Below the pieces are notes generated by a model, which worked only from the letters and a program-made list of their open reading frames with translations, searched no databases and was not told the origin of the DNA. Position numbers and translations under genes: made by a program. DNA of 61,231 bases, counting the filler, from Dugesia japonica (Eukaryota): NCBI GenBank assembly GCA_001938525.1. It is 5 parts of 5 records of this genome, joined end to end, with 100 filler letters (N's around TTAATTAATTAA, not from the genome) between each part and the next. Parts side by side here need not be neighbours in the genome. Positions count along the whole stretch, not along the records: positions 1 to 23,484 come from MQRL01645522.1; 4 more parts are not named here. One strand, written 5' to 3'. Positions 4,380 to 51,376 of the stretch are shown in pieces (the first letter of the stretch is position 1; each line of letters starts with the position of its first letter).

Positions 4380-6673
4380 TAATTTTTGCTCTGGTTTGAC
4401 AGACAACTTTGTTACCCCATTGATCAGGATGACTGTTATTGTGTTGGGTATTTCTACTCAACAAAATATTTATGGTTTGTGAATTTGACTTAATATATAT
4501 CGATAGGTATAAAATTTTACAAATGTTGATTTTATCCCTTTGTATGTGTAGATACTATATTATGTAATCGATATTTTACTGAAAACTAATTATTTTCTCA
4601 ATTAAAAGTTTGGCTATTGTCTCTGCAGTTTCATCTTTTGTAGGGAACGCTTTTGCCCATGTTGTGAAATAGTCATTAAATAAAAATATGTGTTTATTAC
4701 ATTTTATGGTTGTTGGTAATTTGCATAGAAAATATACTGCACACGTCTCCATTGGTGAGCTTAGTATTGGCATTGGTTGTAATGAAACTTTAATTTTTGT
4801 TCCTGTTTTTTTACTTGTGGCACAAATGGTACATGGTTGACATCATTTTTTCACATCATCCTTAAAATTATCCCAATAATACTTTTGCAACAATCTCGAC
4901 GTGGTTTTTCTACTTGATAGGTGACCTTTGAGTGCTCCATCATGGTATTGTAATAGTAATAACTGTTTTAGAGAATGTGGTACTACCATCACATTTTTAC
5001 CTAAGTTATTGTGCATGAACAGATTTTTATACATTTTATATTTAGTATTCTTTTCTTGAATCATTATCTCCTGTATTTTTTATCTTTATTTTGTTCGCCT
5101 AAGAACGTTTTTGGATTATTCATATACTGTGATACGACGGGCTCAAGTGTTACATCTATTGAGATATTGTTTTGTTTAAATACATCAAATAGAAAGGTTA
5201 GTACCCTTTTATTTTCGGTTGTATTATGTATAAAAAATGTGGGTTTAATAAAGAGATTCCAATCATTTTTGTTTTTATTTGTCCATAAACCCGTTAATGG
5301 TTTATGATCTGTTCGTATAACTATTTCAGTCCCATATATAAATAGTCTTAATTGTTTTAAANCAAATATAATAGCTAGAAATTCTTTCTCGATTGTTGAG
5401 TATCTTGTTTCCGTTCCTTTTAATATTCTACTCGTATATGCAATAACAACATCTTTATTTTTCTCGTCTTCTTGTTCTAGTACTGCCTGCATGGCATATC
5501 CGCTTGCATCTGTCATTACTATGAACTTTTTTGTGAAATCAGGATATCTCAATATTGAAGCTGTTAACAATCGCTGCTTTAGTGTATCAAAAGCTTCTTG
5601 TTGTTTTGGACCTAATTTCTTTTGAGGTTTCTGTGATTTCTCATCTAATTGTTCTACAATTATGACATTTTTACTTTCGGCTTGTGTTTTCATACATTTT
5701 GTTAATTCTACCAATGGTGCAGCTATTAATGCAAAGCTTTCTATAAATCTTCGATAATATCCAATTAGGCCGTCAAACCCTTGTAATTGTACACTTTTTG
5801 ATACTGAAAANTCTTGAACTGCTTTTACCTTTTCTGGATTTGGTTCTAATCCCATTGAAGATACAATATGTCCTAAGTACAAGACACTTTCCTCTGCCCA
5901 TTTACATTTTGTATGTTTCAATTTGATATTCGTTTTTTGATTCTCGATAATACATTTTCTATATTAACCAAATGTTGCTCAAATGATTCAGATGCTATCA
6001 ATATATCGTCCATGTATAGAAATACATGTTCTACACCAGAAAATACTGTGTTCATTAGTCNTGAGAAAGTAGCTGGTGCATTACATAACCCAAATGGTAA
6101 TCTAACAAATTTATACAATCCATCATCAGTGCAAAAATGCTGTCTTTTCTCGATCTTTCTTTTGTACTGAAATCACATTATAACCCTTATTTGCATCTAA
6201 AATTACAAAATACCATGCATTCATTAGCTTGTTGAATTGTTCATATATTTTTGGAAACGGATGTGTATCTTTTTTAGTAACTTTGTCGAGCTTTCTGTAA
6301 TCTGAACACATTCAAATTTCTTCATCTTTCCTTTTTACTGGTACTATTGGCCATGCCCATTGAAAAATACTATCTTGTATGATTCTATTTGCTTTCTGTT
6401 CTTGTATTTGTCTTTTTATCTCTGATCTTAACGCATATGGTGCTACATACGGTCATTGCTTTATTAGCCTCACATTACCTGTATCAATCATATGTTTTAT
6501 AATGTTTGTTCCTCCCATATCGAATTCATGTTTAGCAAATGCATCTTCATATTTATCCAATAATTTTAGTAGTTGTTGTTTTTGACACTTTGTATGGTCT
6601 TATAATGTTTGTTCCTCCCATATCGAATTCATGTTTAGCAAATGCATCTTCATATTTATCCAATAATTTTAGT
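4380..6673 (-). mobile_element. Degenerate Ty3/Gypsy pol (RT-RNase H-integrase), frameshifted
   Basis: RT motifs DYRKL, LDANKGY, LPFGLCNAPATF, YMDDILI, YLGHIVS. RNase H TDAS, YSTIEKE, TDHKPL. Integrase HDGALKGH..YYW and DYFTTWAKAFP. Gypsy domain order. Confidence 0.95.
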
Positions 6674-7314
6674 ANNNNNNNNNNNNNNNNNNNNNNNNNN
6701 NNNNNNNNNNNNNNNNNNNNNNNNNNNNNNNNNNNNNNNNNNNNNNNNNNNNNNNNNNNNNNNNNNNNTTAGCTTTCCAATTTCTCTTTGGTGATCTGCT
6801 ATAACTTCAAGTAGCTCATGAACACTTAATTGACTTGCCAATGTTTCAATTTTTTCCGCTGTCAATATGTTATGAGAGTAGACAGATAGTTCAGCATGGC
6901 CTCACGATACTCCCACTTCCTGGATAGAAAAAGTTTTGGAGCTTCAGTTTGATTGGTCAAATTTAAGCTGTATGATTACGCAAATTAGTGACATTAATAC
7001 TGAAATTTGATTGGTCCAAATTGTGTGTATGTTGGTTACGTAAAGATTACATTATAATTATGTAAAAATGGCGTAATGGTTATGCAATGATCGCATAATC
7101 ATAACATAACAATTATTCTTGTTTAAATGAAGTGAAATTATTGATTTTTTTTGTTTAACGAAATTAGTTATTTTTTGTTTGATATAATCGAAATGAATGA
7201 TTATTTGTTTTAATTTAATAAAACTAATAATTTTTGAGCTTCTTCACGGAAAAGTTATTTAAAAATTTATGTTAGTTTAAATTAAGCAAAATTTATCGAA
7301 TGTGATTTACTCTC

Positions 7315-7699: not shown

Positions 7700-9980
7700 T
7701 AAACTTTACATTCAATCATATATATTTCGAAGCCAATACAAAAAAGCTATAATCCCTCACATTAAAATTGCATTTAATCACACACAAAAGGTCTTAGTTA
7801 ACTCATGAAAATTTCTAAGTCAACACATAAAGGTATAATCCATCGGATAAAATTAAAATCCATCACACAAAATATTTACTCAACTCATGAAAATTAAAAC
7901 TCAACACATGACAATCACATAGAAGCCATTAAAAATTTTCATAAATTAAATATAAGTAATCAGTAACTTTCAAAATTATCAAAACATTACACAGATGTCA
8001 ATAAAACCTTTAAAGTTTTACTAGAAGTCAATTGAAGTCTTCAAAAATTACATAGAAGTCATTAAAACTATCATTCATCATACCAAAATTGCATTCCATC
8101 AAACAAAAATTAACACTCAACATGCAATAACTTTAAGCCAACGCACAAAAATTACATTTTATCACATACAATTATAATCCATTATGTTAAAATTAAAAAG
8201 AAGTCATGAGAAATTATCATAAACTATAAAGAAGTTAATAAATTTTCTAAGTCAAAACAAAAATTCTAAATAATCAGATAAATTAATAATCAATCACACT
8301 TAACTATAGTTCATCACATTGAAAGTTTTAAGTTATTACTTTAAAATTATAATCCAGACACTAAATTAATTTTGTCACATAAAATTTCTTAGTCAACACA
8401 TAAAACCTTCAACCAACAAGTTAAACTTATAATCTGTCACACTAGAATGTAGTTCATTACATTGAAATTTCTAAGTCAACGCTTTAAAATTTCGATCCAT
8501 CTCAAAAAGTCTAATTAAAAAAGTCTAAAAAATTAACACTCAACAAGTAAAACTCTTAGTTTTAACATTAATATAGGTCTGAGGACATTAATGTCAATAT
8601 TGTCCGGGGAGCTTTTAAAACATAGAGAAATAAGTCTTTGTGTATATAATTTTCAAGATTACTATGATTTTATAAGTGTTTTTTAGAGTTAACGTAAAAC
8701 TTACAAACATTTACATAAATTTCTAAACCAAGACATAAAAATTATAAGACAACATGTAAAATGTCTATGTCAACGCATAGAAAACTATACTGCATCACAT
8801 TAAAAGGGCATTCAATCACAAAGAATTTCTTAGTCAACACATAAAATTATAATTCATCACATAAAAGTATAATCTATCACACTAGAATTACAATCTATCA
8901 TTCAAAATTGTAACACATTTTATTAAAATTATAATCAATCACACAAAAGTTTCATTCCATTATACAAAATTTAACTCAACTCACGAAATTAAAGTTCAAC
9001 ACAGAATTGTATAGACGTCATAAATAATTTTCAAATATTCTAAAGAATTTATTGAAATTATCATATATTACATAAAAGTAATCAAAGTCTTTCAAAATTA
9101 CGTAGACGTCATTAAAAAGTCTCAAAAATACATAAGTTAATAAAGATTTACTAGAAGTCAATTAATGTTTTCAAACATTACATAGAAGTAAAAAAAATTA
9201 AGTTCATAACACTAAATTACATTCCATCATACAAAGAATTATAACGCAACATATAAAAACTCTAAGTCAACATATAAAACATAATACATACCACTAAAAT
9301 TAAATTCAATCACATTAAATCTGTAATTCATTACATAAAAGTTATATTTCATTACACAAAATTCTAAGCCAACACATAAAATGTCTAAGTCAGCATATAA
9401 TGTCTAGTTTGCTACAAAAACATTCTTAGTCAACACATAATAATTCTAACCAACAGGTTAAACTTATAATTTGTCACACTAAAAATATAGTTCATCACAT
9501 TGAAATTTTTAAGTCAATGCTTTAAATTTTAATCCATTTCACAAAAGCCTAATATAGCCCATACAAATGAACACTAAACAAGTAAAACGCATAAAATATC
9601 TAAGTCAACACATAAAAGTTATAATCTATAACACTAAAATTACATTCTATATCACAAAATTTCATTCAATCACAGTCAAATTCTAAGTGGACACATTAAA
9701 TTTCTAAATCAGTACATAAAAATTATAATTCATCATGCTAAAGTTATATAGAAGTCATTAAAATTACATTTCATCACACAAAATTCTAAAACAACACAAT
9801 AAATTTCTAAGTCAACATGTAAAATATACGATTCATAATTGAAAATAAACACTTAAACATAGAAAATAATCCATTTGTCATGAGAAATTATAGTTTCAAC
9901 ACAAAACATAGGCACTTTATCATAGAAAATTAGAGACAACTACATAGAAAGTATATAATTCGTCATTTAAAATACAACTT
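7700..9980. repeat. Degenerate CA-rich minisatellite (TTCTAAGTCAACACATAAAA / TTATAATCCATCACAC subunits)
   Basis: Dozens of ~20-bp variant units, with larger internal duplications (e.g. 8385-8560 vs 9423-9590). Confidence 0.85.
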
Positions 9981-16805: not shown

Positions 16806-16919
16806 CATAATTTTGAGCAACTTACACTATAGTTTTTTGAAAAATTATTTTTGTAATGGGATGTGGATATTTTTCTGAGTAGAAATGTAAATAAAAATTT
16901 ATGAAATGTGAAAAACTTA

Positions 16920-19900
16920 TTAAAACTTGCATCTGTAATGAGATTTTTTATAAAAAAATTGCAACGCTAATGAGACTTTCTATTTAAAATTGTAACACTA
17001 ATGATATTTTTTAGAGAAAATTGTCACTAGTAATATGGTTTTTATAGAAAACTGTCACTAGTTATATGGTTTTTTATAGAAAATTACNNNNNNNNNNNNN
17101 NNNNNNNNNNNNNNNNNNNNNNNNNNNNNNNNNNNNNNNNNNNNNNNNNNNNNNNNNNNNNNNNNNNNNNNNNNNNNNNNNNNNNNNNNNNNNNNNNNNN
17201 NNNNNNNNNNNNNNNNNNNNNNNNNNNNNNNNNNNNNNNNNNNNNNNNNNNNNNNNNNNNNNNNNNNNNNNGATAATAGAAGTATCTTAAAGACTACCCA
17301 ATATCTTGCAATAATATCAAAAAAAGTATAAAGACTGTTCAATATCATACATAAATAACAAAACTGCGAATTATGCCAATTTTTTAATAATAAATGCAAT
17401 AGGGATGAAATATGTATGCAGTACAGCAACACTTGCCTGGGAATTTTAATAAATGCAATAAGCATGCAAAAGGGTTGCAATAAGGATGCAACACAGTTGC
17501 AACACATATTCACTGAAAATCATGCACTTGGGAATTTTTAAAATTTGCTGTCAAAAATAAGTTTTTTTAATTTCCCGCCAAAAAATTTTTTTTTAATTTC
17601 CCGTCAAAATTGAAATTTTTTAAATTTTCCGCCAAAAAATTTTGTTTTGAATTGCGATATATATGCAATATGAATGTAATACAGCAACACGTGCCTGGGA
17701 AATTCAATAAATGCAATAGGTATGCAACTCAGATGCAACACAATTGAAACACACCAAAATGTGCCTGGTAATTTTTTAAACTACTCAAACCACTAAAATA
17801 ATGCAATAATCTAAAGAAAACTTCTCCCACATAGCGTAACTATGTAAATAATACAAACTAGGCATGGTAAATAAGTAAATACTCGGTAACTATGTAATTA
17901 ATAAAATAGTTTTTAAAAATTTATATTTTATTCATTTCATATTGACATAATTATAGTAATTACAATTATGATAATATGAATTAGCATTCTTAATTTTAAA
18001 TGCAATTAAGATTTTAAAATTAAAAAATCAATATATTATTGATTTTTTATTTTATATTTACTTAATTGCATTTAAAATGGAGAATTAAAAATGGAGAATT
18101 TTAAAATGGTGAGTTTATTTCTTTTATATATTAATTTAATGTAAATTTAGGTAAATCAAATGAAAAGTTTCGTTATTATATGGTCAATTATGTTTAAAAG
18201 TTCCATAGTAACATAGTCTATGATATTTAAAGGTTTCATAGTAATATGGTATATGAGTTGGTAGATAGTGGCACACGGGCACAATTTATTTTGGGCAAAA
18301 TTTTAAAAATTAATACCCCTAGGGGGGTTGGGCTCGGAAACACATTACGTTTCAGCTGCGTTTTTTAGACATCATTTTTGTGCTCGTGTTTTTAAAGATT
18401 TTTGATCGGATCAAATTTTTTTGATCCTAAAGTGCGTGTGTGTATTTTTAAATTCTAAATTTTGTGTGTTTATGGGTTGCTAAGGTGGTTTTTAAAAAGT
18501 AGGTCAAGTTGATTTTGTGTGTCAGATTGAAAAAAACGAGTAGGAGGAGCTGGGGATCTTGGATATAATTTTTTTGTAGTTTTAAAGATTTGGTTGTGGT
18601 TGGACAAAAATTTGGTTTATATATTGTCTAAAGGACTTATGAGTTTGGATGGATGGTTCCTTCTACAAGGGTACAGGCGTATGAGTTATCGTGGGTAGTT
18701 TTTATGGAGGCTGTAGGTTTGTATGTTTTTGATGGAATTTGTTGGTTGATGGTTTGTTGGAGATGTAATGTGGTGGGGAAGATGTTGGTTGTCGAATGTG
18801 CTTTGATTTCTTATTTTAAGGGCTACTATTTGATTGGTTTATTTTGTAAGAAGTATAAGTGTGTTAACAAAATTTTTCGTGAGGTGGAGGTTGGTATGTG
18901 TGGAAAGAGAATTAATTATCGGATTTTATAAGATTTATTTGAAAATTTTCTGTTTGGTGGTTATAACGTCATAATTTTGTGAAATCTTTATTTTGGTTAC
19001 AAATGCTGTATTTTGCTTAAATTGATGAATTTAATGAAAGTAATGTTATTTTAATGTATTTGATGTATTTTTGGTTATTGTTTCGGTATTTTAAACAGGG
19101 AAAAGTTGTTTTTTAATATTTTCGAACGGAGAAGAGGGGAGTCTTGATATTTTTAAAACTTTTTTGGCGGGAAATTCAAAAAAAAATATTTTTAGCGGGA
19201 AATTCAAAACAAATATATTTTAAGCGGGAAATTCAAAAAAATATTTTTTGGCCAGAAATTCCAAAAAAGATTTTGGTTGGAAATTTTCCATTTCAATGTG
19301 GGAAATCTTTTTATAATAATTTCATTAAATTAAATTTAATTTAATTAAATTAATTTATTTATGTAAGAGATGTGGTAGTCTTGATATTTTGCATGCCGAG
19401 TCATTAGATTTTGCATAAGATGAGCAGTTTTGATATTTTTTAAGATATCATTAGAAGATATCGAGCAGTCTTGATATTTTTTAAGATATTATTACAAGAT
19501 TAAAGCATTATTGATTATTTCTTTATATTTTACTTTAGATGGGTCAGTCTTGATATATTTGTAATAGATTGAGACATTATTGATTTTTTAAAAAATATTT
19601 TTGCTTTGGATGGGAATCAAAATGGTGGCAATATTGAGTTTTAAAAATTCTTAGACTTGTGATTTTCAGTGTATGTGTGTTGCAGCTGTAATGCTTCTGA
19701 GTTGCATTTATGAATATATATGTATCAAAAAACTTCAAAGAGATGTCTTTGTGATATTTAAATGAGTAAATATTCAAATTAAAACCTTTCTTTACAAAAT
19801 GATAAAAAAACAACATTTTTCAAAAACATATTACTAGTGACAATTTTCTCAAAAAAATCTCATAACCGATGCAATTTGTAATAAAAAAATCTCATTAGCC

Positions 19901-19960
19901 ATTCAATTTTCTATAAAAACATATATGCAGTGACAATTTTCTATACAAAATGATAAAAAC
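16920..19960. mobile_element. Foldback-like element with modular long inverted arms (A-B-C...C'-B'-A')
   Basis: A: AAAATTGTCACTAGTAATATG repeats 16920-17087 / 19820-19950. B: AAGACTG.TCAATATC 17290-17360 / 19375-19570. C: TTTCCCGCCAAAA 17570-17650 / 19160-19290. All mirrored around ~18300. Confidence 0.7.
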
Positions 19961-20049
19961 ATAGAAATTCTCCACACACACACACACACATATATATATA
20001 TAGCTAATAAGCCTATATAAAAAAGACTTATAAGTAAATATTTTGATAT

Positions 20050-21615
20050 CTAAATAAGGTTTATGAGTGTATAACGTTTAAGAGTGAAGAGGGTTAAAGA
20101 AGAAATAGGGTTTATGAGTGTATGTTTTGCATTGGTAAATTGTATTATAGGATTTATTTATATAATTCAGATGACAAATCATAGTTACTATGTTTTATTG
20201 ACATAGCAGCCATGTAATATAGGGTTTATGAGTGTATTTTTACACAATAACCTTGTATTATATGGTGTATGAGTGTTTTGTTTNNNNNNNNNNNNNNNNN
20301 NNNNNNNNNNNNNNNNNNNNNNNNNNNNNNNNNNNNNNNNNNAGACTTATGAGTGTATTAATACACAGTAATCCTGTAATATAATGTTTACGAGTATATT
20401 ATTTGTTTAGATATCATGTAATATTTACATAAAAACCTTTTAATATATGGTTTTTTTGTGTGTTATTTGCATATTAACCGTGTATTATACGATTTATAAG
20501 TGTATTATTTGCATAGTTACCTTGTATTTTTGACATAGCAACTATGTATTATAAGGATTTTGTGTGTAATAATACATAGTAACCCTGTATTATAAGGTTT
20601 ATGAGTATATTATTTGATATTTATCTTGTAATATTTACATAGCAACCATGAAATATAAGGTTTATGCAATATAAGGCTTATGGGGGAATTATTTTACATA
20701 ACAAACGTGTAATATAAGGCTTATGAAGGTAATTTTTACATAGTAAAAATGTTTTATAGAGTTTATGGGTATATTATTTACACATTAGCCGTGTAATATA
20801 TGGTTTATAAGTGTATTATTTGCTTAGATATCATGTAATATTTACATAACAACCGTTTAATATATGATTTTTGTGTGTATTATTTACATAGCAACCATGT
20901 ATTTTTAAGATTTTGTGTGTATTAATACATATTAACTGTATTATAAGGTTTATGAGTATATTATTTACATATTTTTCGTGTAATATAAGGCTTACGGAGG
21001 TATTATTTACATGAAAACTGAATAATATAAGACTTATGAGGGAAATATTTACATAACATACTTGTATAATAAGGATTATAACATTTACGAGTGTATTATT
21101 TGCTTATGTAACATGTAATATTTATGAAACAACCATTTAATGGTTTTTGTATGTATTATTTACATAGCAACCATGTATTATAAGGATTTTGTGTGTATTA
21201 ATAGATAGTAACTATGTATTATAAGGTTTATGAATATATTATTTGATAGTTACCTTGCATTATCTACATAGCAACCATCTATTATAAAGATTCTGAGTGT
21301 ATTATTACATAGCAACCATGTATTATAAGGATTATGAGTGTATTATTTTTAAAGCAACCATGAAATATAAGGTATTTGAAATATAAGACATATGAGGGAA
21401 TTATTTACATAGCAAACGTCTATTATAAGGTTTATGAAGGTATTTGTACATAGTCATCATCTAATATATGATTTATGAGTGTAATACTTGTATATTTACA
21501 TTGTTTTATATACTTAGTAGCTATGTATTGTGTTTTATGAGTGTATTATTTACTAAACAACTATGTATTTCTTTCTAAAAACTGTGTAATATAAGACTTA
21601 TGAGGGTATTTTTTA
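20050..21615. repeat. ~42-bp minisatellite (TATAAGGTTTATGAGTGTATTATTTACATAGCAACCATGTAT)
   Basis: Many degenerate tandem copies. Confidence 0.9.
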
Positions 21616-21722
21616 CGTAAGATAATTTGATTATCATTTCTTTATCTCTATTTTTGTTAATTTATTCATAATTTAGTACATTGTTTTAACGAATCAATTA
21701 AATTAAATTCATAAAAACCCCA

Positions 21723-22176
21723 ATGTTCTTCTTTAATTCATTAATTATGATAACCAATATTAATTACAGAGGTGAAATGACGCAAGAAAATAAGCTTTCC
21801 TACAGGCAAACCATGTCAATTTAAAGTCAAAAGTGAAAAATTTATAATTATGTACTTTAGATCAGGAAAATGTAGAATAATGTGTTGTAAGAAACCATTG
21901 GAACCTCATGATTTGAATCCTATAATACAAAAAATTTAAAATTACAATAGCTATTTATTGTCGTAAATATAGGAGTTTTAATAAACCTGTATAAATTAGC
22001 AAGAATAGTCAACTGTTGGTTCGAACCAGAGTTATTTCCTGCTCTAAGACTTGTAAAATATGACTTTATGAGTAAATGTGTTCTCAACAGGAAAGCTAGT
22101 AATATTAGGGCTTTAAAATTTGTATTTTCAAGAATATCTGAATAACATTACTTCAGATTTAACAAATTTTATTTAA
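21723..22176 (+). pseudogene. Compact intronless TATA-binding-protein-like gene, disrupted
   Basis: Manual translation across frameshifts: MITNINYRG..KPCQFKVKSEKFIIMYFRSGKCRIMCCK..VNIGVLINLYKLARIVNCWFEPELFPALRL..VNVFSTGKLVILGL*NLYFQEYLNNITSDLTNF. Matches the TBP signatures IFSSGKMVCTGAK, YEPELFPGL and IFVSGKVVLTG. Confidence 0.85.
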
Positions 22177-22276
22177 AAAATTTAGAAAATTCGCAACACG
22201 GATGCAAAACTTTTACAATTCAAGTACAAAAAATATTAATTTAAATTTAGATATTTAAATTTCAAATAATTAATAT

Positions 22277-23484
22277 TGTTGGGGTTTTACCCTAGGTGGG
22301 TTGATTTCTTATATGATTAAATCTAGCGGAGTCGAACTTTATATAAAATTAAGTCTAGGATAATCAACATGGTAAAACCCCGCGATGAATTTGAATCTGG
22401 TGTCCCCCAAAATATCCAGATCTTCGGAATGAAGCCGTTGACTCTTAACTCGAGTACAGACTCGCACTCCTTTGGTTCGGGTTAGTTTTACATGTTACTC
22501 GCTTGATTTACTAATCACAATTAGCCTTTACAATTATCCACTTATAATTTTCCGTTTAGTGGGGTGATCCTTAATTCGGTCATTCTATATTTGTTTATAA
22601 TCTTAATAGCCATATTATCAATTTGGAAAAACAAAAGAACTTTTAACTGAAAAATATTTTATATTATTTAAATTTCACTTGGAGTACAATAACCTAACTA
22701 ATAACATAATTAACAAAACTAACGTAACCTTGATCCCGATCTGGAACAAAAACAAGACCATAACATCCATCCCATTCGTCCAATAGTGACTTCCGAGGTC
22801 CTAAATAATAATAAGTCATAGCAATCCAGTCGGAAACCGTTGTTTGCAATCAACAACGAGAAATTACTGTAGAATCAATTCTTCGCTTCAATAATAATGT
22901 TGATTGTACTCCTGAAATTTAGGTGCTTCCGAATCTATTGTTACTCTTCTTGTAATTAGAAATTGGTGCGATCAGATTTTTTTATACTTTCCTTTAATGA
23001 AAATTTCATCGGTATTTATACCAGATTCGTCGACGCCTTCCTTCGTTTCATTGGTAGATATAAATTCTCGGTGTTTTCATTGGCTAGATGGTCACATGTG
23101 TGTTTTTCATTGGTAGTTATTTTGGGATTCCAAAATTATTGGTCCATTATCAAACCTTTGTAACTTCTTTCTTATCCTTGCCATGATTTTCTATCTTTGA
23201 TTTTTGAAATCCCCGATTTTTTCTTGACCCGAATTTTCTAAATTGATAATTTTGGCGTCACTATAAGTCCTAATTTTCTTAGTTTTTTGGTAGAAAATTT
23301 AATTTTCTTTTTAAAATAAATGATTTTAACTCTTATGATTTATTTTATTTAAATAAATAAATAATTTATTTTATTTTCTTTGTGTATCTTAATTAAGTGT
23401 TCATTTCTTAGTTTTGTCTGATTTAATTTTAATTTAATTTCATTGTTTTCTTCTATTAATTAATTCATTTAATTAATTTTTTCT
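22277..23484 (-). mobile_element. Family A short LTR (inverted, truncated at scaffold end)
   Basis: Terminus TGTTGGGGTTTTAC at 22277. 22400-22485 is closely similar to the reverse complement of 41001-41085. Multiple CCAAT boxes 23060-23145 and TATAAATA near 23015 on the minus strand. Confidence 0.75.
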
Positions 23485-23528
23485 NNNNNNNNNNNNNNNN
23501 NNNNNNNNNNNNNNNNNNNNNNNNNNNN

Positions 23529-41348: not shown

Positions 41349-42174
41349 TCTAATATTACAGGTTTTTGTAGAAATATATTTAAAAAGTTTCAAAATATAT
41401 GTAAAATTTGTTTGAATTTACACACTTTCAAAAAATGAATACATCTATTTTATTTATTTAAAATAAAATTTAAATTTATTTAATTAAATGTATATGAATA
41501 TTGGAATATTTGATTTATATATATTTTGAGCATTTTACAAGATTATTATTTTAAATATATTTCTTCAAAAACTTGTAATAAAAAATAACTGTTTAAAATT
41601 TGTTAACAGATATTAGCTAGTTTCATGTTTTTCTAGACTTTCAGGCATTAATTAATATTGAACGATAACAAAATATTCTATTAAAAANTTTAATCACACA
41701 AATTAGGTTAAATATTAATGTTAAGAAATAGGTTTTCAAAATATATTTTTTGAGAATATTTCGTGATTGTAAAGGTGAAAACTAATAATTACAAATTAAA
41801 AAGTATTACAATTATTGAAAAACTACAAATTCCACATATTACAAATACAACAATATATAAATATTTACACCCAACCAAATACTCAGCAAAACAAGCCAAT
41901 ATCAAATATAGAATAAAAACCCAAAGAATAATATTCATCATGCAATATAGATTACCAATCAGTTTCGGCAAATAACAACTCTAATTGCAAATTTTAACAT
42001 GATTATAAATTGTCTCTCTAAATTCAAATTCTAATTTCAGCCGTGTTATAAACTTTATTTAAACATCAAAAAATTTTCTGTATATTTAATTCCTGATAAA
42101 AATAATCAAGGAAATTTATTTTTCCGCATCAATTAAATTTGTTTAAATTAATCAAATAATTCATAAAACTAAAA

Positions 42175-42425
42175 ATGGAAAACAGTTGTCCAATTTGCTA
42201 TGAAAATTTGTCTGATGATGGTTGCATAATATTTTCTGGATGTGATCACAAGTTTTGTTTGCAATGTAGTAAAGAATTGATATTTAAAATAAAAGTAAAT
42301 TGCCCACTGGATCGAACAAATATTCAATTTATCCAACAATCTCAACACGATAACAAAATTGTTTCTAAATCCATTTTTGAATTTCAGTGTGAATTGTGGG
42401 AAGAAAAACAATCAGAATTTCAAAA
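42175..42425 (+). CDS. C3HC4-type RING finger protein, 5' part (truncated by scaffold end)
   Basis: CPIC-x13-CDHKFCLQC-x11-CPLDR (last ligand Asp, as in some RING variants). Confidence 0.8.
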
Positions 42426-42899
42426 NNNNNNNNNNNNNNNNNNNNNNNNNNNNNNNNNNNNNNNNNNNNTTAATTAATTAANNNNNNNNNNNNNNNNNNN
42501 NNNNNNNNNNNNNNNNNNNNNNNNNCCAAGACAGAAAAGATAACCAAGCAAAGAAAGACGATGGAACAATAATGAATGAGAATTAAGATCAGAGAGATAA
42601 TCATTAAACATCAAAAAGCCTAGTAACCCAACAATGGAATGTATTATTACAGTCTGGCTCAAAATATCTATATTTGCGAATATAATTATATTGTTTGTGA
42701 GGATATTTTATATTTATTATAAATGTTTATTAAAACTGTATGTTGCATAATTAATATTTGACAATGAGTTCAAATATTTTGTATGTTGCATAACAGGTCA
42801 ATGTTTGTTTGCTGATTGAGGTATTTTGATTGCTCAAATCATAATTGCATATATATTTATTCATCCTTTTTAAATTGTTATATTAATAAATATTATGGT

Positions 42900-44020
42900 T
42901 ATGAAACAGACTTCTTACATAGCGACCACCCAAGGACATATGCTCAATTCCTTTGTTCCTACTCCAAAAACCTTCGATATTGGAGACGATGTGGAATAAT
43001 TTTTAATCGAGATAGCAAGATTTTATAAGCTTACAATGACTCAAGGTCATGAAAATCTCTTAAAACTTCCCATTCGAAACCATTAGTTTTTATTTCATAA
43101 TTAGAAATATGCAATGGAGATAATATATAACTTTTTCGGAGTGTCATATTATTTTCAAGCGGTTTTTGATCTTATTTAAGGACATTTATAGAAATGTTGA
43201 ATAATTTTTCCAAAGTGTTAATCTTATTTATTGGAAAAGCTGTCTTCATTACTTGATTTAGGTCTATACCATTTTCCATAAATACATCAGTATTTATTGC
43301 CTTAAAATATTTTGAATAATATTAAAATTCAATTTTATGGTGTAACTCATCCGGTTGAGGAAATAAATATGCAATTATATGACAAAATATGCAGAAATTA
43401 TCTTTTGTTTTAATATTTATAATTGAGTTGAATCTTAATGGAAAATTTGAAATGTGTCCTCCACGTAGAAATTTAACTCTGATGAATTCTAATGCAAGTT
43501 CTTTAAAACCTATCATTCTCCAATTGCTTCCTTGTAAACTATTCATCTTTTTCTCGAAAACATTATTTATGCTAATATACATTTCTTCATAATTATTTCT
43601 ACTATTATTAAAACAAATTAAAGGATGCGACCGAATTAATATATCCTGTTCTAAAGTATTTCTATTTTATATCTATTCATTAATTAATAAATCGTCTCTT
43701 TTCATATAAACGGTGCTGGAGATTATAGATTTGAAGTTCTTGTAAGGAAAGTGTTCTATCTTATCCATAATTGTATTTTCAAAACTGGATAAATAGGTAT
43801 TTATATTATCAGTTAAAATTAATTCATGGAATATAAGCTCATTAAAATAATAGGCGTGAACATTTATTGCTTCCAATCTATTAATCTCCCGTTGTTCGCG
43901 ATTATATCTTCGCTCTTCTTGCCGATTAAAGAAACGGATGGACCTATTAATTCTATTTCTCCTATTTCTCCTTATAATTGGAGGTAAATTAGGATTATTA
44001 TTTCTTCGTAACGCTGGCAT
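42900..44020 (-). pseudogene. Decayed N-terminal part of a Maverick/Polinton-type (protein-primed PolB-associated) ORF
   Basis: QGSNW...LRGGHISNFP...IINIKTKDNFCIFCHIIAYLFP and FPINKINTLEKLFNISINV resemble the GSGW..LP..IIN..N.D..CF.W.I.A / FP..I..FE..N.ISINV pattern I recall for such elements. No catalytic motifs present. Confidence 0.6.
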
Positions 44021-44700
44021 AACTTTTTATTATTATTTCATTTTTATTTATTTAAAATAATGTTATTTATTAAAGTGTAATAGTTATTGAATGGGATGAA
44101 TGTCACTTGTGGCTTATTTTTTCAGCGTTTTTGCATGGTTTTATTTATTTTATTTAATCATTTTAGTCAATTGATACAAATTTTGGGTTTTCTGTCATTG
44201 AATCGAAAAAACCCTTAAAAACGTCCATTTTCGACATGGTGAAAAAATCCAAAAAAGTGCTATAGGGCCGATTCCGCTCATTTAACAACTACTTAAATGA
44301 ACGTGTACTAATTAACCCGAAAATGTTAAATTCATTGAAAATAGCGATTTATTGGTTTTTATAAATTTGAACAATAGATTTATTTTGATAATTATGTTTG
44401 GCTAGAACACATACGTCCGGCAACANNNNNNNNNNNNNNNNNNNNNNNNNNNNNNNNNNNNNNNNNNNNNNNNNNNNNNNNNNNNNNNNNNNNNNNNNNN
44501 NNNNNNNNNNNNNNNNNNNNNNNNNNNNNNNNNNNNNNNNNNNNNNNNNNNNNNNNNNNNNNNNNNNNNNNNNNNNNNNNNNNNNNNNNNNNNNNNNNNN
44601 NNNNNNNNNNNNNNNNNNNNNNNNNNNNNNNNNNNNNNNNNNNNNNNNNNNNNNNNNNNNNNNNNNNNNNNNNNNNNNNNNNNNNNNNNNNNNNNNNNNN

Positions 44701-46650: not shown

Positions 46651-47665
46651 CGCTTGTGATTTTTAGGTATGCCCCTGGACACCGTAGTGAGAAATATAAA
46701 TTTTGAGTACAAGAAAAACTGATGATAAAATCAATTCAAACAACAAAATAAAATTTAAACTGTCATTTAAAAAAATCATAAAAACCCAACAATTATTATA
46801 ATATTAATTTAACCTATACTTTTTAAAACTAAATTTTAATATAATTAACAATTTAAAAATTTAAGTATGCATTCGTTAATAAAATGGATTCATAAATAGT
46901 AAAACGAATTCAAAGTTATTTTTTGTAAAAATATGCCCTTATTTATAAAACTCAAAGTAAAAGAAAAGTTTACAATTTATAAACGTAACACAAAATAAAT
47001 TGGATGTGTAACATTTTTTATTGTATTGATAATTAAGCATATTTTTAAGTATTTAAAAATAAATATTATTCATATATTGGTCTGATTTGCTTCTAATTAT
47101 ATGTATTAATAATTAAAATTAATAATAATTATAATCAATAATAATTATTATTAATAATGATTATAATTAATAATAATTATAATTTTAAATAATGATCATT
47201 AATAGCCTAACCGTAAGATTTAATAATAATTATAAATTCAATTTAGAATGATCGAGTTAAGTTTTCCAAATCTTCCGCGACACACTGTTTGAGAAAAACT
47301 GTATTAAATTGAAAATTATGAAAAACTATAGAAAGAAGAAAATGTATTAAGTTTACTATTATACTTTCTAGAATTTTTTTGTTACGAATTTTAAAATGAA
47401 ATTGGTCATTTTAGATTTCATTCATATTTTAAAAGACTGAATAACTGAATATTTTTAATTAAATTAATTTATACTTTGTTTAAATAAAAAATAGCAATTA
47501 ATTATTTTTGAATTATGGGTATGATGAAATTTTAAGTTTTTATATTAAATTAATTTTATTTTAGAATCTTNNNNNNNNNNNNNNNNNNNNNNNNNNNNNN
47601 NNNNNNNNNNNNNNNNNNNNNNNNNNNNNNNNNNNNNNNNNNNNNNNNNNNNNNNNNNNNNNNAT

Positions 47666-50600
47666 AATAGAACCTTTTTAGTTGAAGATAGACTAACAGA
47701 TGCTGATAAAAGTGTGTTTTTGACCTTGCACAATAATGATAGCTTTCGTTCATTACTGAACTCTAATGCCTTATCCACAAATTTGGTGAGATATTACAAT
47801 TACTTAGTTCAATTAGATGAAATAAAAGTTGTTCTGTCAAAACTAAAAACTACTACATCAGCACCGAAAGAAGTTAAATCAACATCTTCGGTACAATTTG
47901 AAGATGGTGGAAAATTTATTGCTCTTAAAAATGCTACAAAGGGTAATGTAGTAGTACGGTTTCCTCCTGAAGCTAGTGGTTATTTGCACATTGGTCATGC
48001 TAAAGCTGCTTTGATTAATCAACATTACAAAGATCATTATGAAGGTAAATTGATAATGAGATTTGATGACACAAATCCTGCTAAAGAATCTGCCGAATTT
48101 GAAAAAATTATTTTGGAGGATGTTAAAAGTCTTGGAATTACATATGACCATTTCAGTTATTCTTCAGATCATTTTGACTTATTAATAAAGTACTGCGAAG
48201 ATTTAATAATTTCCGGAAATGCTTACGCTGATGATACAGATCCTGTACAAATGAAAAAAGATCGCGAAGAGAAAGTTATATCAAAATGTAGAAATCGGTC
48301 TGTTGAAGAAAATCTACATATTTGGAATGAAATGAAATTAGGATCAGATGTGGGAGTAAAAAATTGCGTCCGTATTAAATTTGATATGAACTCTAATAAT
48401 GGCTGTATGAGAGATCCAACTATTTACAGATGCAAACCTGAAATTCATCCTAAAACCGGTGATAGATATAAAGTCTATCCAACGTACGATTTTGCTTGCC
48501 CAATTGTTGATAGTATTGAAGGTGTGACACACACTTTAAGAACCAGTGAATATAACGACAGGAATGAACAATTTTACAAATTTCTTGATCTACTTAAACT
48601 CAGGAAATCCGCTATCGCAGACTATTCGAGATTATCTTTACAAAACACTGTTTTATCAAAGCGTAAATTAACTTACATTGTCGATGAGGGTTATGTCGAT
48701 GGATGGGATGATCCTAGAATGCCGACAGTTCGAGGAATTCTCAGACACGGTATGACCATTAATGGATTGAAAGAATTTGTTCTGGCACAAGGATTCGGAC
48801 GTGCCAATGTTGTGATGGAGTGGGATAAATTATGGGCATTTAATAAGAAGGTTATTGACCCGATTGTTCCTCGATATACTGGCTTGACTGGATCGGAAAA
48901 ATCATTAGTTTTAGTGAAAATAATCGATCAATCCACCATTGTAAAAGATTCTGTTGTTAAACATCCGAAAAACGATTCTATTGGCAAGAAATCTATTTGG
49001 TTCAGCCCAAGTGTATTTGTGGAAATGAACGACGCTGTTGATTTTGTAGAGGGAACAAATGTCACTTTTATCAACTGGGGTAACATTTTAATTACCAAAA
49101 TTCATCGAAATAGTGACAATACGATCAAATTTGTCGAGGGAAAATTGAATTTATCCGACAGAGACTTCAAAAAAACTCAAAAAATCACATGGATGCCTTT
49201 GGGAGAGAATGATGACGTCACAGCGTTTTCAATACCGATTTCGACGATTTTCTACGACAATATTATCACGAAAAACGTTCTTGGAAAGGATGACGACTTC
49301 AAAAATTTCCTAAATAAAAACTCGAAACGAGAAGAATGTTTAATCGGAGATATTGAGTTGAAAGATTTGAAAAAAGGAGAAATTGTTCAGTTACAACGAC
49401 GAGGATTCTTTATTTGCGATGAAGAATATCGAAAGAAATGTAAAGTGACTGGAAATGAGTTGCCGTTGGTTTTGATCAATATACCCGAAGGAAATACCAA
49501 AGAACGACCGACTGTAGGTATGAAACAAAAATCTGGAACAACTTCAAAACCAGATTCCGGTGACCAAAATGATAAAAAGAAAGAAAAGAAGGACGGCTCT
49601 AGTGCAAGAGAAACCAAGAAGGATGGTTCTAGTGGAAGAGAAACCAAGAAGGATGGCTCTAGGGCAAGAGAAACCAAAAAGGATGCATCAAGTGCAAAAG
49701 AAACCAAGAAGGATGCATCAAGTGCAAGAGAAACCAAGAAGGATGCATCAAGTGCAAGAGAAACCAAGAAGGATGCATCAAGTGCAAAAGAAACCAAGAA
49801 GGATGCATCAAGTGTAAAAGAAACCAAGAAGGATGCAACAGATGTGAGTAAAACCGAATCTCAAGTGAAAAAGGTTACTCGCCTAGGTCTAGAAGTATCA
49901 AAGAGTGAAAATTTTTCCGAATGGTACACTCAGATTATCATAAAGGCAGGCCTAATTGAATATTACGATATCAAAGGTTGTTACATTCTTTTGCCGTTAA
50001 CTATGAAGTTGTGGGAAAAAATCCAAAACCATATCAACCAATTCATCGAGACAATCGGAGTTGAACCGTGTAGCTTTCCGTATTTTATTTCGAAAAGTGC
50101 TTTAACCAAAGAAAAAGATCATATCGCAGACTTCTCTCCAGAGGTAGCTTGGGTAACAATGGCTGGTGATAAGAACTTAGAGGAACCAATAGCGATTAGA
50201 CCGACTAGTGAAACGGCCATGTATCCGTATTACGCCAAGTTTATCCAGTCTCACAGAGATCTGCCATTGAAATTCAACCAGTGGTGCAGTGTGGTCAGGT
50301 GGGAATTCAAGCATCCCATGCCATTTCTGAGGAGTAGAGAATTCCATTGGCAGGAAGGTCACACAGCATTTTCCAATCAGAAAGACGCTACTGATGAGGT
50401 CTATCAAATTTTGGATCTTTATGCTTCGGTCTATGAAGATTTATTGGCGATTCCTGTTGTGAAAGGAAGAAAAACCGAAAAGGAAAAGTTTGCAGGAGCT
50501 GATTTTACGACGACAACTGAAGTTTACATAGGAGCTTCCGGTCGTGCCATACAAGGTGCCACGTCTCATCATTTGGGTCAGAATTTCAGTAAAATGTTCG

Positions 50601-51376
50601 ACATTAGTTTCGAGTCAACCAGCGGGAAACAGGAATTTGTCTATCAGAACTCATGGGGCATGACAACTAGAACCCTGGGTATATTGGTTATGGTACATGG
50701 TGACGATAAAGGGCTTGTATTGCCACCGAGAGCTGCACTACATCAAGTGGTAATTGTACCGTGTGGACTGACAGTCAAATCGACTGACGAAGAATCTCAA
50801 TCAATCTATGATAAGTGTAAAAGCTTGGCTGAGAGATTGCGCAAGGTGAATATCAGAGTTCAGGCAGATTTAGAAACTCATCGATCTCCTGGATTTAAAT
50901 TTAACAAATGGGAATTAAAGGGTGTACCGATTAGAATTGAAATGGGCCCCAAAGATATAGCCAATAAGAAAATTGTTTTGTGCTACAGATTAAATGGAGT
51001 AAAAGAAACAATTGATGACGAAGGAATGGAACAAGTTATGCTTGAAAAGCTGGAAGATATTCAAAAAATGATGTTTAACAAAGCAAAAGAAGAATTGGAC
51101 AGTCATAGAACAGTGGCTTATAATATGGATAATCTGTGTAAAGCACTTAATAACAAGATGCTGGTAACATGTCCATTTTGCGGAGATAAAGCTTGTGAAG
51201 ACAAAATTAAGCTTTTAAGTGCTGGAGAGTCGATTGTCGAAGAAGGTGCTCCCTCAATGGGTGCAAAATCATTATGTATTCCATTTGATCAGCCTGACAA
51301 TCTTGGTGACAAATGCATCAATAATGAGTGCACCTTGAAACCAAAATATTTTACAATGTTTGGAAGAAGTTATTAA
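47666..51376 (+). CDS. EPRS: Bifunctional glutamyl-prolyl-tRNA synthetase, main exon; true start upstream (possible first exon ATG at 47248, N gap in between)
   Basis: GST-C-like remnant RTFLVEDRLTDADKSVF. GluRS motifs RFPPEASGYLHIGH, RFDDTNP, YPTYDFACP, VLSKR, GWDDPR. Eukaryote-type ProRS motifs IRPTSET, FLRSREFHWQEGH, QGATSHHLGQNF and C-terminal FGRSY. Confidence 0.98.
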   Translation, partial: NRTFLVEDRLTDADKSVFLTLHNNDSFRSLLNSNALSTNLVRYYNYLVQLDEIKVVLSKLKTTTSAPKEVKSTSSVQFEDGGKFIALKNATKGNVVVRFPPEASGYLHIGHAKAALINQHYKDHYEGKLIMRFDDTNPAKESAEFEKIILEDVKSLGITYDHFSYSSDHFDLLIKYCEDLIISGNAYADDTDPVQMKKDREEKVISKCRNRSVEENLHIWNEMKLGSDVGVKNCVRIKFDMNSNNGCMRDPTIYRCKPEIHPKTGDRYKVYPTYDFACPIVDSIEGVTHTLRTSEYNDRNEQFYKFLDLLKLRKSAIADYSRLSLQNTVLSKRKLTYIVDEGYVDGWDDPRMPTVRGILRHGMTINGLKEFVLAQGFGRANVVMEWDKLWAFNKKVIDPIVPRYTGLTGSEKSLVLVKIIDQSTIVKDSVVKHPKNDSIGKKSIWFSPSVFVEMNDAVDFVEGTNVTFINWGNILITKIHRNSDNTIKFVEGKLNLSDRDFKKTQKITWMPLGENDDVTAFSIPISTIFYDNIITKNVLGKDDDFKNFLNKNSKREECLIGDIELKDLKKGEIVQLQRRGFFICDEEYRKKCKVTGNELPLVLINIPEGNTKERPTVGMKQKSGTTSKPDSGDQNDKKKEKKDGSSARETKKDGSSGRETKKDGSRARETKKDASSAKETKKDASSARETKKDASSARETKKDASSAKETKKDASSVKETKKDATDVSKTESQVKKVTRLGLEVSKSENFSEWYTQIIIKAGLIEYYDIKGCYILLPLTMKLWEKIQNHINQFIETIGVEPCSFPYFISKSALTKEKDHIADFSPEVAWVTMAGDKNLEEPIAIRPTSETAMYPYYAKFIQSHRDLPLKFNQWCSVVRWEFKHPMPFLRSREFHWQEGHTAFSNQKDATDEVYQILDLYASVYEDLLAIPVVKGRKTEKEKFAGADFTTTTEVYIGASGRAIQGATSHHLGQNFSKMFDISFESTSGKQEFVYQNSWGMTTRTLGILVMVHGDDKGLVLPPRAALHQVVIVPCGLTVKSTDEESQSIYDKCKSLAERLRKVNIRVQADLETHRSPGFKFNKWELKGVPIRIEMGPKDIANKKIVLCYRLNGVKETIDDEGMEQVMLEKLEDIQKMMFNKAKEELDSHRTVAYNMDNLCKALNNKMLVTCPFCGDKACEDKIKLLSAGESIVEEGAPSMGAKSLCIPFDQPDNLGDKCINNECTLKPKYFTMFGRSY
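49586..49836 (+). repeat. Coding 30-bp tandem repeat (KKDASSARET x8 plus partial) in the EPRS linker
   Basis: AAGAAGGATGCATCAAGTGCAAGAGAAACC units, in frame. Confidence 0.98.

What the first reader, a model, noticed from the sequence alone, without database searches (positions are those of the whole stretch)
21723..22176. Hidden minimal, intronless TBP-like gene missed by the ORF track
Seen: both TBP repeats are recognisable (YFRSGKCRIMCCK; FEPELFPAL; VFSTGKLVILGL) in only ~150 codons, with frameshifts and stops. The first repeat is shortened and far more diverged than canonical animal TBP/TRF, so it is unlikely to be a recent processed pseudogene of host TBP. It lies amid minisatellite and foldback-like DNA. 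Known: some large DNA viruses encode their own TBP. Inference: cargo of an endogenous DNA virus or Maverick-like element carrying a basal transcription factor.
Basis: partly seen in the sequence, partly recalled or inferred. Interest (0 to 1): 0.72.

Follow-up and report, generated by a model that had tools for sequence, protein, structure and literature searches.

The report
Broken Maverick-virus mini TATA-binding gene
This is a dead, frameshifted copy of a miniature TATA-binding-protein gene from a family carried by Maverick/Polinton virus-like elements, whose intact members likely switch on the element's capsid and packaging genes through a shared promoter word.

Summary
A TBP-like gene lies at 21747-22185 (+), intronless, with three frame breaks and three in-frame stops. 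It is not a host TBP copy. It nests in a family of intact ~150-aa proteins (73% identical to the nearest; union with cellular TBPs rejected, AU p 3e-8). An intact relative folds as a full TBP saddle (Z 12.8).

Family members sit in Maverick/Polinton elements beside packaging ATPase, integrase, protease, pPolB and a double-jelly-roll capsid. The window copy has no such neighbour nearby. It belongs to a very high-copy repeat of this organism, and other copies appear transcribed.

In relatives, ATAAAC precedes 23 of 27 packaging/structural genes but only 2 of 19 TBP genes. The protein keeps the TFIIB-contact glutamates and lacks the lobe-1 regulatory helix. I infer a late-gene promoter factor, like herpesvirus TBP mimics; binding is untested.

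The scan found this family before on other DNA (9 notes). In print I found only a bare 'TBP' label in one figure legend. This locus is a decayed member.

The parts
21747..22185 (+). Broken mini-TBP gene (about 146 codons, no intron, three frame switches, three in-frame stops)
   Evidence: 73% identity to intact 150-aa P0004 over repeat 2
21747..21920 (+). First TBP lobe, shortened as in the whole family (short first helix, no long second helix in the model of the intact relative)
21921..22185 (+). Second TBP lobe with the FEPELFP stirrup and VNVFSTGK strand
   Evidence: Pfam PF00352 27.9 bits; tree position
21660..21746 (+). 5' flank carrying the TGTTT(T/A)A word 65 nt before the ATG and a TCATT word just before it, as in relatives; likely the element's own promoter region
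   Evidence: TGTTTWA before 12 of 19 family TBP genes (shuffle mean 2.8, 0 of 300 shuffles reach it) and before the window gene; read depth runs on from here into the gene
20050..21650 (.). Degenerate minisatellite (21/42-nt period) abutting the 5' flank; high-copy in this organism; link to the element not shown
22280..23484 (-). Unrelated high-copy repeat inserted 3' of the gene, second copy at about 40200-41130 (+) ending in a (TAA)n run; likely the 3' end of a non-LTR retroelement (R4/Dong-like by recalled motifs; no database hit)
   Evidence: no Pfam, Atlas or Rfam support

Best explanation
The locus is a decayed copy, one of very many in this genome, of a 150-residue TATA-binding-protein gene from a family carried by Maverick/Polinton elements, and the intact protein likely acts as the element's own late-gene promoter factor. 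Shown: the gene and its breaks, family membership, the Maverick context of relatives, the predicted TBP saddle, purifying selection on intact members, and the sense-strand ATAAAC word before packaging and capsid genes. Inferred: the mini-TBP is made early from a different promoter, binds (C/T)ATAAAC with its altered DNA-facing surface, and recruits host TFIIB and RNA polymerase II through the kept acidic stirrup. Lacking the lobe-1 helix, it would escape host regulators such as TFIIA, TAF1 and Mot1/BTAF1. The window copy cannot make the protein. Odds: about 0.9 for the identity, about 0.55 for the mechanism.
For: Family: 94 proteins of 100-224 aa at E<=1e-3; 471 hits among 50%-cluster representatives, canonical TBPs included. 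Tree: the window piece lies in starred clades of mini-TBPs; union with 9 cellular eukaryotic TBPs rejected, dlnL 98.7, p-AU 2.8e-8. Context: 9 of 26 family loci, and all 5 longer than 4 kb, carry ATPase, integrase, capsid, protease or PolB. Pfam confirms Pox_A32, rve, Peptidase_C5, DNA_pol_B_2 and PLA2; the capsid model matches PBCV-1, Sputnik and mavirus capsid proteins (E 5e-14 to 1e-11). Fold: P0004 pLDDT 93.6; 148 of 150 residues align to human TBP, Z 12.8, rmsd 2.9, 20% identity. Selection: pN<pS in 105 of 105 pairs of 15 intact ORFs. Motif: ATAAAC before 23 of 27 packaging/structural genes (shuffle mean 2.6) and 2 of 19 TBP genes; (C/T)ATAAAC 50 times on the sense strand and once on the other in six loci (about 10 expected per strand); not enriched in four Maverick loci with longer TBP variants (6 and 4, about 7 expected). 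Residues: E97 in 50 of 51 and E99 in 51 of 51; N6, R47, M49, C113 and N115 invariant. The two acidic C-lobe positions bind TFIIB and a basic N-lobe helix-2 patch binds regulators (PMC7221094, passages). Copies: 17,043-23,497 different contigs per DNA run lie on the 2.5-kb stretch, with summed depth 430,000-701,000 over the gene in run X1 against 7-37 for single listed contigs. RNA: first-mate-minus reads outnumber plus reads 1.7- to 10-fold over the gene in three poly(A) runs, and depth rises about five-fold at the start.
Against: No ATPase, capsid, protease or Maverick integrase remnant lies in the window; the integrase hits fall on LTR-retroelement remnants. No Maverick terminus was found. 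The nearest relatives (64-77% to P0004) come from short contigs without context; the context-bearing loci are only about 35-50% identical. The motif was picked from the same upstream set on which it was counted, and the 27 regions come from 9 contigs. No TBP-less Maverick control was obtained (empty). TATAAAC is close to a canonical TATA box, so host TBP could read it. Summed contig depth is not a copy number. The RNA signal comes from one study, library strandedness is not on record, the minisatellite has reads with the same bias, and the other study's run gave only 61 reads. No open-frame copy in this organism was shown.
Confidence: 0.62

Rival explanations
1. Same origin, different job: the mini-TBP is a decoy or repressor. 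It occupies TATA-like DNA or sequesters host TFIIB to damp host or element transcription, while host TBP reads the ATAAAC promoters.
For: The late word resembles a canonical TATA box. The kept glutamates would allow TFIIB sequestration. The word upstream of TBP genes resembles the late word reversed, which could be a feedback site. The protein has no extra activation domain.
Against: Invariant non-canonical residues on the DNA-facing strands suggest a specificity of its own. The word tracks the mini-TBP lineage and not the Mavericks with longer TBP variants.
Confidence: 0.2
2. The high-copy unit in this organism is no longer a Maverick but a small non-autonomous element or dispersed satellite (minisatellite, promoter and TBP gene) that amplified on its own.
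For: Depth is high and continuous from about 21580 to 22240 and high over the minisatellite. No Maverick gene follows or precedes the TBP gene here, whereas relatives have an ATPase or another element gene next door.
Against: The locus is cut by a retroelement insertion and an assembly gap at 23485, so loss of neighbours is expected. No contig spans the unit. This rival concerns how copies spread, not where the gene came from.
Confidence: 0.12
3. Old processed pseudogene or fast-evolving paralog of the host's TBP/TRF genes.
For: Intronless and broken; the host is likely an animal (fused Glu/Pro-tRNA synthetase in the window; the link to animals is recalled). No animal TBP or TRF2 was in the trees.
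Against: 111 bits against P0004 versus about 26 bits against human TBP; AU rejection; family-type 5' flank retained; very many copies; intact relatives lie in Maverick gene clusters.
Confidence: 0.02
4. Fragment of an endogenised giant virus (NCLDV) that encodes TBP.
For: Giant viruses encode TBPs, and the fold matches several of them.
Against: Giant-virus-like TBPs fall with cellular TBPs, away from this clade (group labels assigned by eye). Only 4 distant loci came from the viral contig collection. Relatives carry an rve integrase and a protein-primed PolB.
Confidence: 0.02

Closest known systems
Cellular and archaeal TATA-binding protein (Pfam PF00352; PDB 7egb_P, 1mp9, 2z8u)
   Same: Two-lobe saddle fold (Z 12.8 over 148 residues); EPE stirrup and GK motifs; three clear intercalating phenylalanines (F41, F101, F117 invariant).
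   Different: 150 instead of about 180 residues; 18-25% identity; short first helix and no long second helix in lobe 1; invariant non-canonical residues on the DNA-facing strands; encoded by a mobile element.
Maverick/Polinton elements, adintoviruses (PMC8502044: term passages, section 3.4 and a supplement term search; its preprint 10.1101/697771: passages; PMC8097293 and PMC6431247: term passages)
   Same: Relatives of the gene lie with pPolB, rve integrase, A32-type ATPase, adenovirus-type protease, PLA2 domain and double-jelly-roll capsid. [quoted passage not shown]
   Different: That label concerns MELD viruses in a section on non-animal datasets and comes with no analysis; the figure itself could not be seen. 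None of the papers searched describes a 150-aa family or a late promoter word. The window copy has no core gene or terminus beside it.
Beta/gamma-herpesvirus TBP mimics ORF24, BcRF1, UL87 (PMC6541308, passages)
   Same: A viral TBP-like protein paired with a variant TATA word (TATT there, ATAAAC here) enriched before structural late genes, using host RNA polymerase II.
   Different: Those proteins are large, bind Pol II directly and need five more viral factors. This one is a bare core that keeps the TFIIB contacts, and its function is only inferred.
Giant-virus (NCLDV) TBP/TFIIB pairs (PMC7221094, passages)
   Same: Viral TBP that has lost the N-lobe residues used by host regulators.
   Different: Those TBPs have variable TFIIB-contact residues and mostly a viral TFIIB. 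Here both glutamates are nearly invariant, and no TFIIB family hit was seen among 53 ORFs scanned from partial loci.

Membership tests
TBP family (PF00352) | Profile match above the curated cut-off | tested here: met
   27.9 bits against 22.9 for repeat 2 read through with X
TBP family (PF00352) | Two-lobe saddle fold | tested here: met
   On the intact relative P0004: pLDDT 93.6; Z 12.8, rmsd 2.9, 148 aligned
TBP family (PF00352) | Four intercalating phenylalanines | tested here: inconclusive
   Three invariant; the first appears replaced (P26/Q28 region), mapped by eye with recalled numbering
TBP family (PF00352) | Two C-lobe glutamates that contact TFIIB | tested here: met
   E97 50 of 51, E99 51 of 51; role from PMC7221094
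Eukaryotic cellular TBP | N-lobe helix 2 with basic patch for TFIIA/TAF1/Mot1 | tested here: not met
   No long helix between strands E45-51 and E66-78 in the model
TBP family (PF00352) | Binds TATA-type DNA and nucleates transcription | not testable with these tools
   Needs a binding or transcription assay
Host TBP/TRF pseudogene | Groups with cellular eukaryotic TBPs | tested here: not met
   p-AU 2.8e-8 against 9 non-animal eukaryotic TBPs; about 26 bits against human TBP
Host TBP/TRF pseudogene | Groups with the host's own TBP or TRF2 | not tested
   No host genome was held; no animal paralog in the trees
Host TBP/TRF pseudogene | Single or low copy | tested here: not met
   Thousands of different contigs per DNA run cover it
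Maverick/Polinton (gene family) | pPolB, rve integrase, packaging ATPase, protease, jelly-roll capsid in the same element | tested here: met
   In relatives: 9 of 26 loci, 5 of 5 longer than 4 kb
Maverick/Polinton (this locus) | Core genes adjacent to the window copy | tested here: not met
   None by tblastn or by profiles on six frames; only a weak PolB-like signal 21 kb away, across two assembly gaps
Maverick/Polinton (this locus) | Terminal inverted repeats and target-site duplication | tested here: inconclusive
   No paired terminus found; the locus ends at an insertion and a gap
Herpesvirus-type viral TBP late-transcription system | Variant TATA word enriched before structural genes | tested here: met
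   ATAAAC 23 of 27 against 2.6 expected; sense-strand 50 to 1; word chosen after looking
Herpesvirus-type viral TBP late-transcription system | Extra Pol II-binding domain and partner viral factors | tested here: not met
   The 150-aa protein is all TBP core; it works like, but is not a member of, that system
NCLDV TBP/TFIIB system | Cognate viral TFIIB in the same genome | tested here: inconclusive
   No TFIIB hit among 53 ORFs of partial loci

The most novel reading that the evidence does not exclude
A widespread lineage of animal Mavericks runs a minimal late-transcription switch: one 150-residue TBP, the smallest kind of two-lobe TBP, reads a private (C/T)ATAAAC box before capsid, ATPase, protease and integrase genes, borrows host TFIIB and Pol II, and is immune to host TBP regulators. 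In this organism the gene has multiplied to thousands of copies, some still transcribed, so an orthogonal TBP may be present in host cells.
Probability: 0.45. Interest if true: 0.75.

Novelty: new variant of a known kind. Interest (0 to 1): 0.42.

Why it matters
How Mavericks/Polintons time their genes, and whether they still behave as viruses, is open. An element-encoded TBP paired with a defined promoter word before the virion genes makes that question testable with one small protein and a short DNA word. It would be a second, independent route to a viral TBP that uses host Pol II, besides herpesviruses. A natural TBP stripped of its regulatory helix and with altered DNA-facing residues is also a useful probe of the minimal TBP function. 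The window copy itself is dead; its value is as a marker of a very large, partly transcribed family in this genome.

Tried and rejected
No whole genome was held, so copy number and intact copies could only be approached through sequencing runs. Viral contig scans with P0004, a capsid protein and an ATPase found nothing, and the alignment found 4 distant loci; no TBP-less Maverick control resulted. The run search listed no holder on record as RNA; raw RNA reads of the same species label were laid instead. tblastn and profile searches for Maverick genes in the window were empty apart from TBP. The PolB-like piece at 43.3-43.7 kb found no homolog, and its profile score was weak (iE 0.03). The repeat 3' of the gene got no Pfam, Atlas or Rfam match. 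The capsid alignment had no sequence hit in PDB or NCBIfam; only the fold identified it. The ESM Atlas named TBP clusters with unreliable taxa. An intron explanation of the frame breaks was rejected: relatives are colinear over each break. Reading ATAAAC as a poly(A) signal was rejected: it is preceded by C or T and often lies inside the upstream coding sequence. The 76-row tree finished only as a quick tree; a 35-row careful tree without the mixture model was used for the test. A complex prediction with TFIIB was not run, because a textbook pair with a stand-in partner would say little. Eight literature searches and term look-ups in PMC11131425, PMC8097293, PMC6431247, 10.64898/2026.10.13.758929 and 10.64898/2026.06.19.733378 found no account of a Maverick TBP. 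One supplement file of PMC8502044 held no TBP term; figures, bioRxiv supplements and subscription papers could not be seen and may bear on novelty.

Full report
Observation. Six-frame translation shows the pieces in two alternating frames on the + strand: MITNINYRG from 21747, KKISF...YFRSGKCRIMCCK (21784-21936)...FEPELFPAL... (21921-22070) and VNVFSTGKLVILGL... (22072 on). There are three frame switches and in-frame stops at 21948, 22114 and 22174. Repeat 2, read through with X at the breaks, passes the Pfam TBP cut-off (27.9 bits). An intact relative scores 97 bits on the window and at most 29.3 on 100 shuffled windows. The gene spans about 21747-22185.

Family. Repeat 2 found three intact proteins of 150-155 aa, the best 73% identical. 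That protein, P0004, found 94 relatives among 96 candidates, and 471 cluster representatives at E<=1e-3, canonical TBPs included. In an alignment of 51 of the 94 the short first lobe is universal, so it is a family trait. Among 15 intact ORFs from fetched loci, pN<pS in 105 of 105 pairs. The AlphaFold model of P0004 has pLDDT 93.6 and aligns over 148 residues to human TBP (Z 12.8, rmsd 2.9, 20% identity); the next unrelated fold scores 6.9. Lobe 1 has a short first helix and no long second helix.

Not a host TBP. The window piece nests with P0004, P0007 and P0013 in starred clades in both trees. Forcing it with 9 cellular eukaryotic TBPs is rejected (p-AU 2.8e-8). Limits: the window row fills 36% of the columns, outgroup labels were assigned by eye from sequence motifs, the test tree used 35 of the 76 rows, and no animal TBP or TRF2 was included. 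Against human TBP the piece scores about 26 bits, against P0004 111.

Context of relatives. A metagenome scan kept 80 loci of 144 confirmed; the top 26 belong to this family. Nine of the 26, and all five longer than 4 kb, carry Maverick core genes; 14 more share other genes with that set, and 3 short ones show none (the reference proteins came from these loci). Pfam confirms Pox_A32 ATPase, rve integrase with chromodomain, Peptidase_C5, DNA_pol_B_2 with endonuclease VII, PLA2 and KilA-N. The presumed major capsid protein folds like PBCV-1, Sputnik and mavirus capsid proteins. The minor-capsid label rests on gene order and recall. L023 holds nearly a whole element with TBP directly before the ATPase. 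Five further loci (L032-034, L038, L050) are Mavericks with longer TBP variants on separate branches.

Context in the window. No Maverick gene was found near the copy by tblastn or by profiles on all six frames. Upstream lies a degenerate 21/42-nt minisatellite. Downstream, from about 22280, lies another repeat with a second copy at 40.2-41.1 kb, then an assembly gap at 23485. The 5' flank keeps the family's TGTTT(T/A)A word at -65 (12 of 19 relatives), which fits a DNA-level remnant of the element rather than a retrocopy.

Copies and transcription. No genome was held. Twenty listed runs from 9 studies, all one organism label, hold the stretch or part of it. In three DNA-type runs 17,043-23,497 different contigs lie on 21000-23480. 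Summed depth over the gene is 430,000-701,000 in X1, against 7-37 for single listed contigs. This is not a copy count, but it shows a very large, diverged family. Most copies differ from the window at many sites, including at or beside several of its breaks, so intact copies are likely but not shown. In three poly(A) runs of one study, first-mate-minus depth over 21708-22127 is 29-61 against 3-21 for plus, and 5-8 in the bin before. If the library is stranded in the usual way this is sense transcription of other copies; only 8-9 reads per run were 99% alike to the window. The minisatellite also has reads, and the second study's run gave 61 reads only, so this is weak evidence of low-level expression.

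Mechanism. Earlier scan notes suggested a shared TATA-like word; I tested it. Among 55 upstream regions the top 7-mers were ATAAACA and TATAAAC. After dropping the unnamed OB-like genes and the duplicate L016 rows, ATAAAC stood before 23 of 27 ATPase, integrase, capsid, protease and adjacent genes (shuffle mean 2.6, 0 of 300 reach it) and before 2 of 19 TBP genes. Over six whole loci (C/T)ATAAAC occurs 50 times on the coding strand and once on the other. In four loci with longer TBP variants it is at chance level. The word was chosen after looking and the regions come from 9 contigs. The protein keeps E97 and E99, the positions that bind TFIIB, and lacks the N-lobe helix that carries the basic patch for host regulators (PMC7221094, passages). 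Invariant N6, R47 and M49 replace canonical small residues on DNA-facing strands (canonical residues recalled). No TFIIB was seen among 53 ORFs scanned. I infer an early-made factor that reads the late word and recruits host TFIIB and Pol II. A decoy role is the main rival.

Known work. [quoted passage not shown] Herpesvirus TBP mimics with TATT late promoters are the functional analogue (PMC6541308, passages). Eight searches and term look-ups in five other papers found no description of this family. The scan itself holds 9 earlier notes on it in other genomes (8 shown); these are unchecked notes and not independent support.

Verdict. Real; a dead member of a Maverick-borne mini-TBP family; new variant of a known kind. 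Interest 0.42: the family and its promoter word are worth an experiment, but this locus is a stray fragment and the family has been reported repeatedly in this scan.

Noticed in passing
window 47549-51376 (+): Intronless fused glutamyl/prolyl-tRNA synthetase gene. The linker has no WHEP hit and holds 8.4 copies of a 30-nt repeat (a 10-residue, lysine-rich unit) instead.
   Followed up: partly
window 42530-44030 (-) and 42160-42423 (+): Decayed reading frame resembling the N-terminal part of a Maverick-type PolB (weak profile hit, iE 0.03; no homolog found). A RING-finger ORF (Pfam) lies across the adjacent assembly gap.
   Followed up: partly
window 20059-21430 (-): The minisatellite unit carries the Maverick late word (C/T)ATAAAC on the minus strand 10 times. 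The copies are one repeated unit, so this may be chance.
   Followed up: partly
window 22355-22504 and 40977-41128: A 150-nt segment of the downstream repeat is far more abundant than its flanks in DNA and poly(A) RNA, with minus-strand bias and loose ends on both sides; it may be a SINE-like or truncated 3' end. No Rfam match.
   Followed up: partly
window 16900-17650 and 19150-19950: Foldback-type pair of inverted arms built from short tandem units, around a G-rich spacer.
   Followed up: no
window 7700-9800: A second degenerate 21-nt minisatellite with the opposite strand bias to the one beside the TBP gene.
   Followed up: no
window 4576-6900, 30649-31720, 33494-35315: LTR-retroelement remnants; rve and integrase zinc-finger hits at 30.6-31.7 kb, the others by sight.
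   Followed up: partly
L032, L033, L034, L038, L050: Mavericks with longer TBP variants (170-195 aa), some with a complete first repeat, on separate branches and without the ATAAAC enrichment. This suggests stepwise reduction or more than one TBP capture.
   Followed up: partly
L027, L028, L035, L052: Archaeal-type contigs with divergent TBP paralogs, two or more per contig in L028 and L052.
   Followed up: no
window 23485, 32658, 42426, 51408: Assembly gaps of 100 letters with an artificial 12-nt linker in the middle; they produce false inverted repeats.
   Followed up: yes
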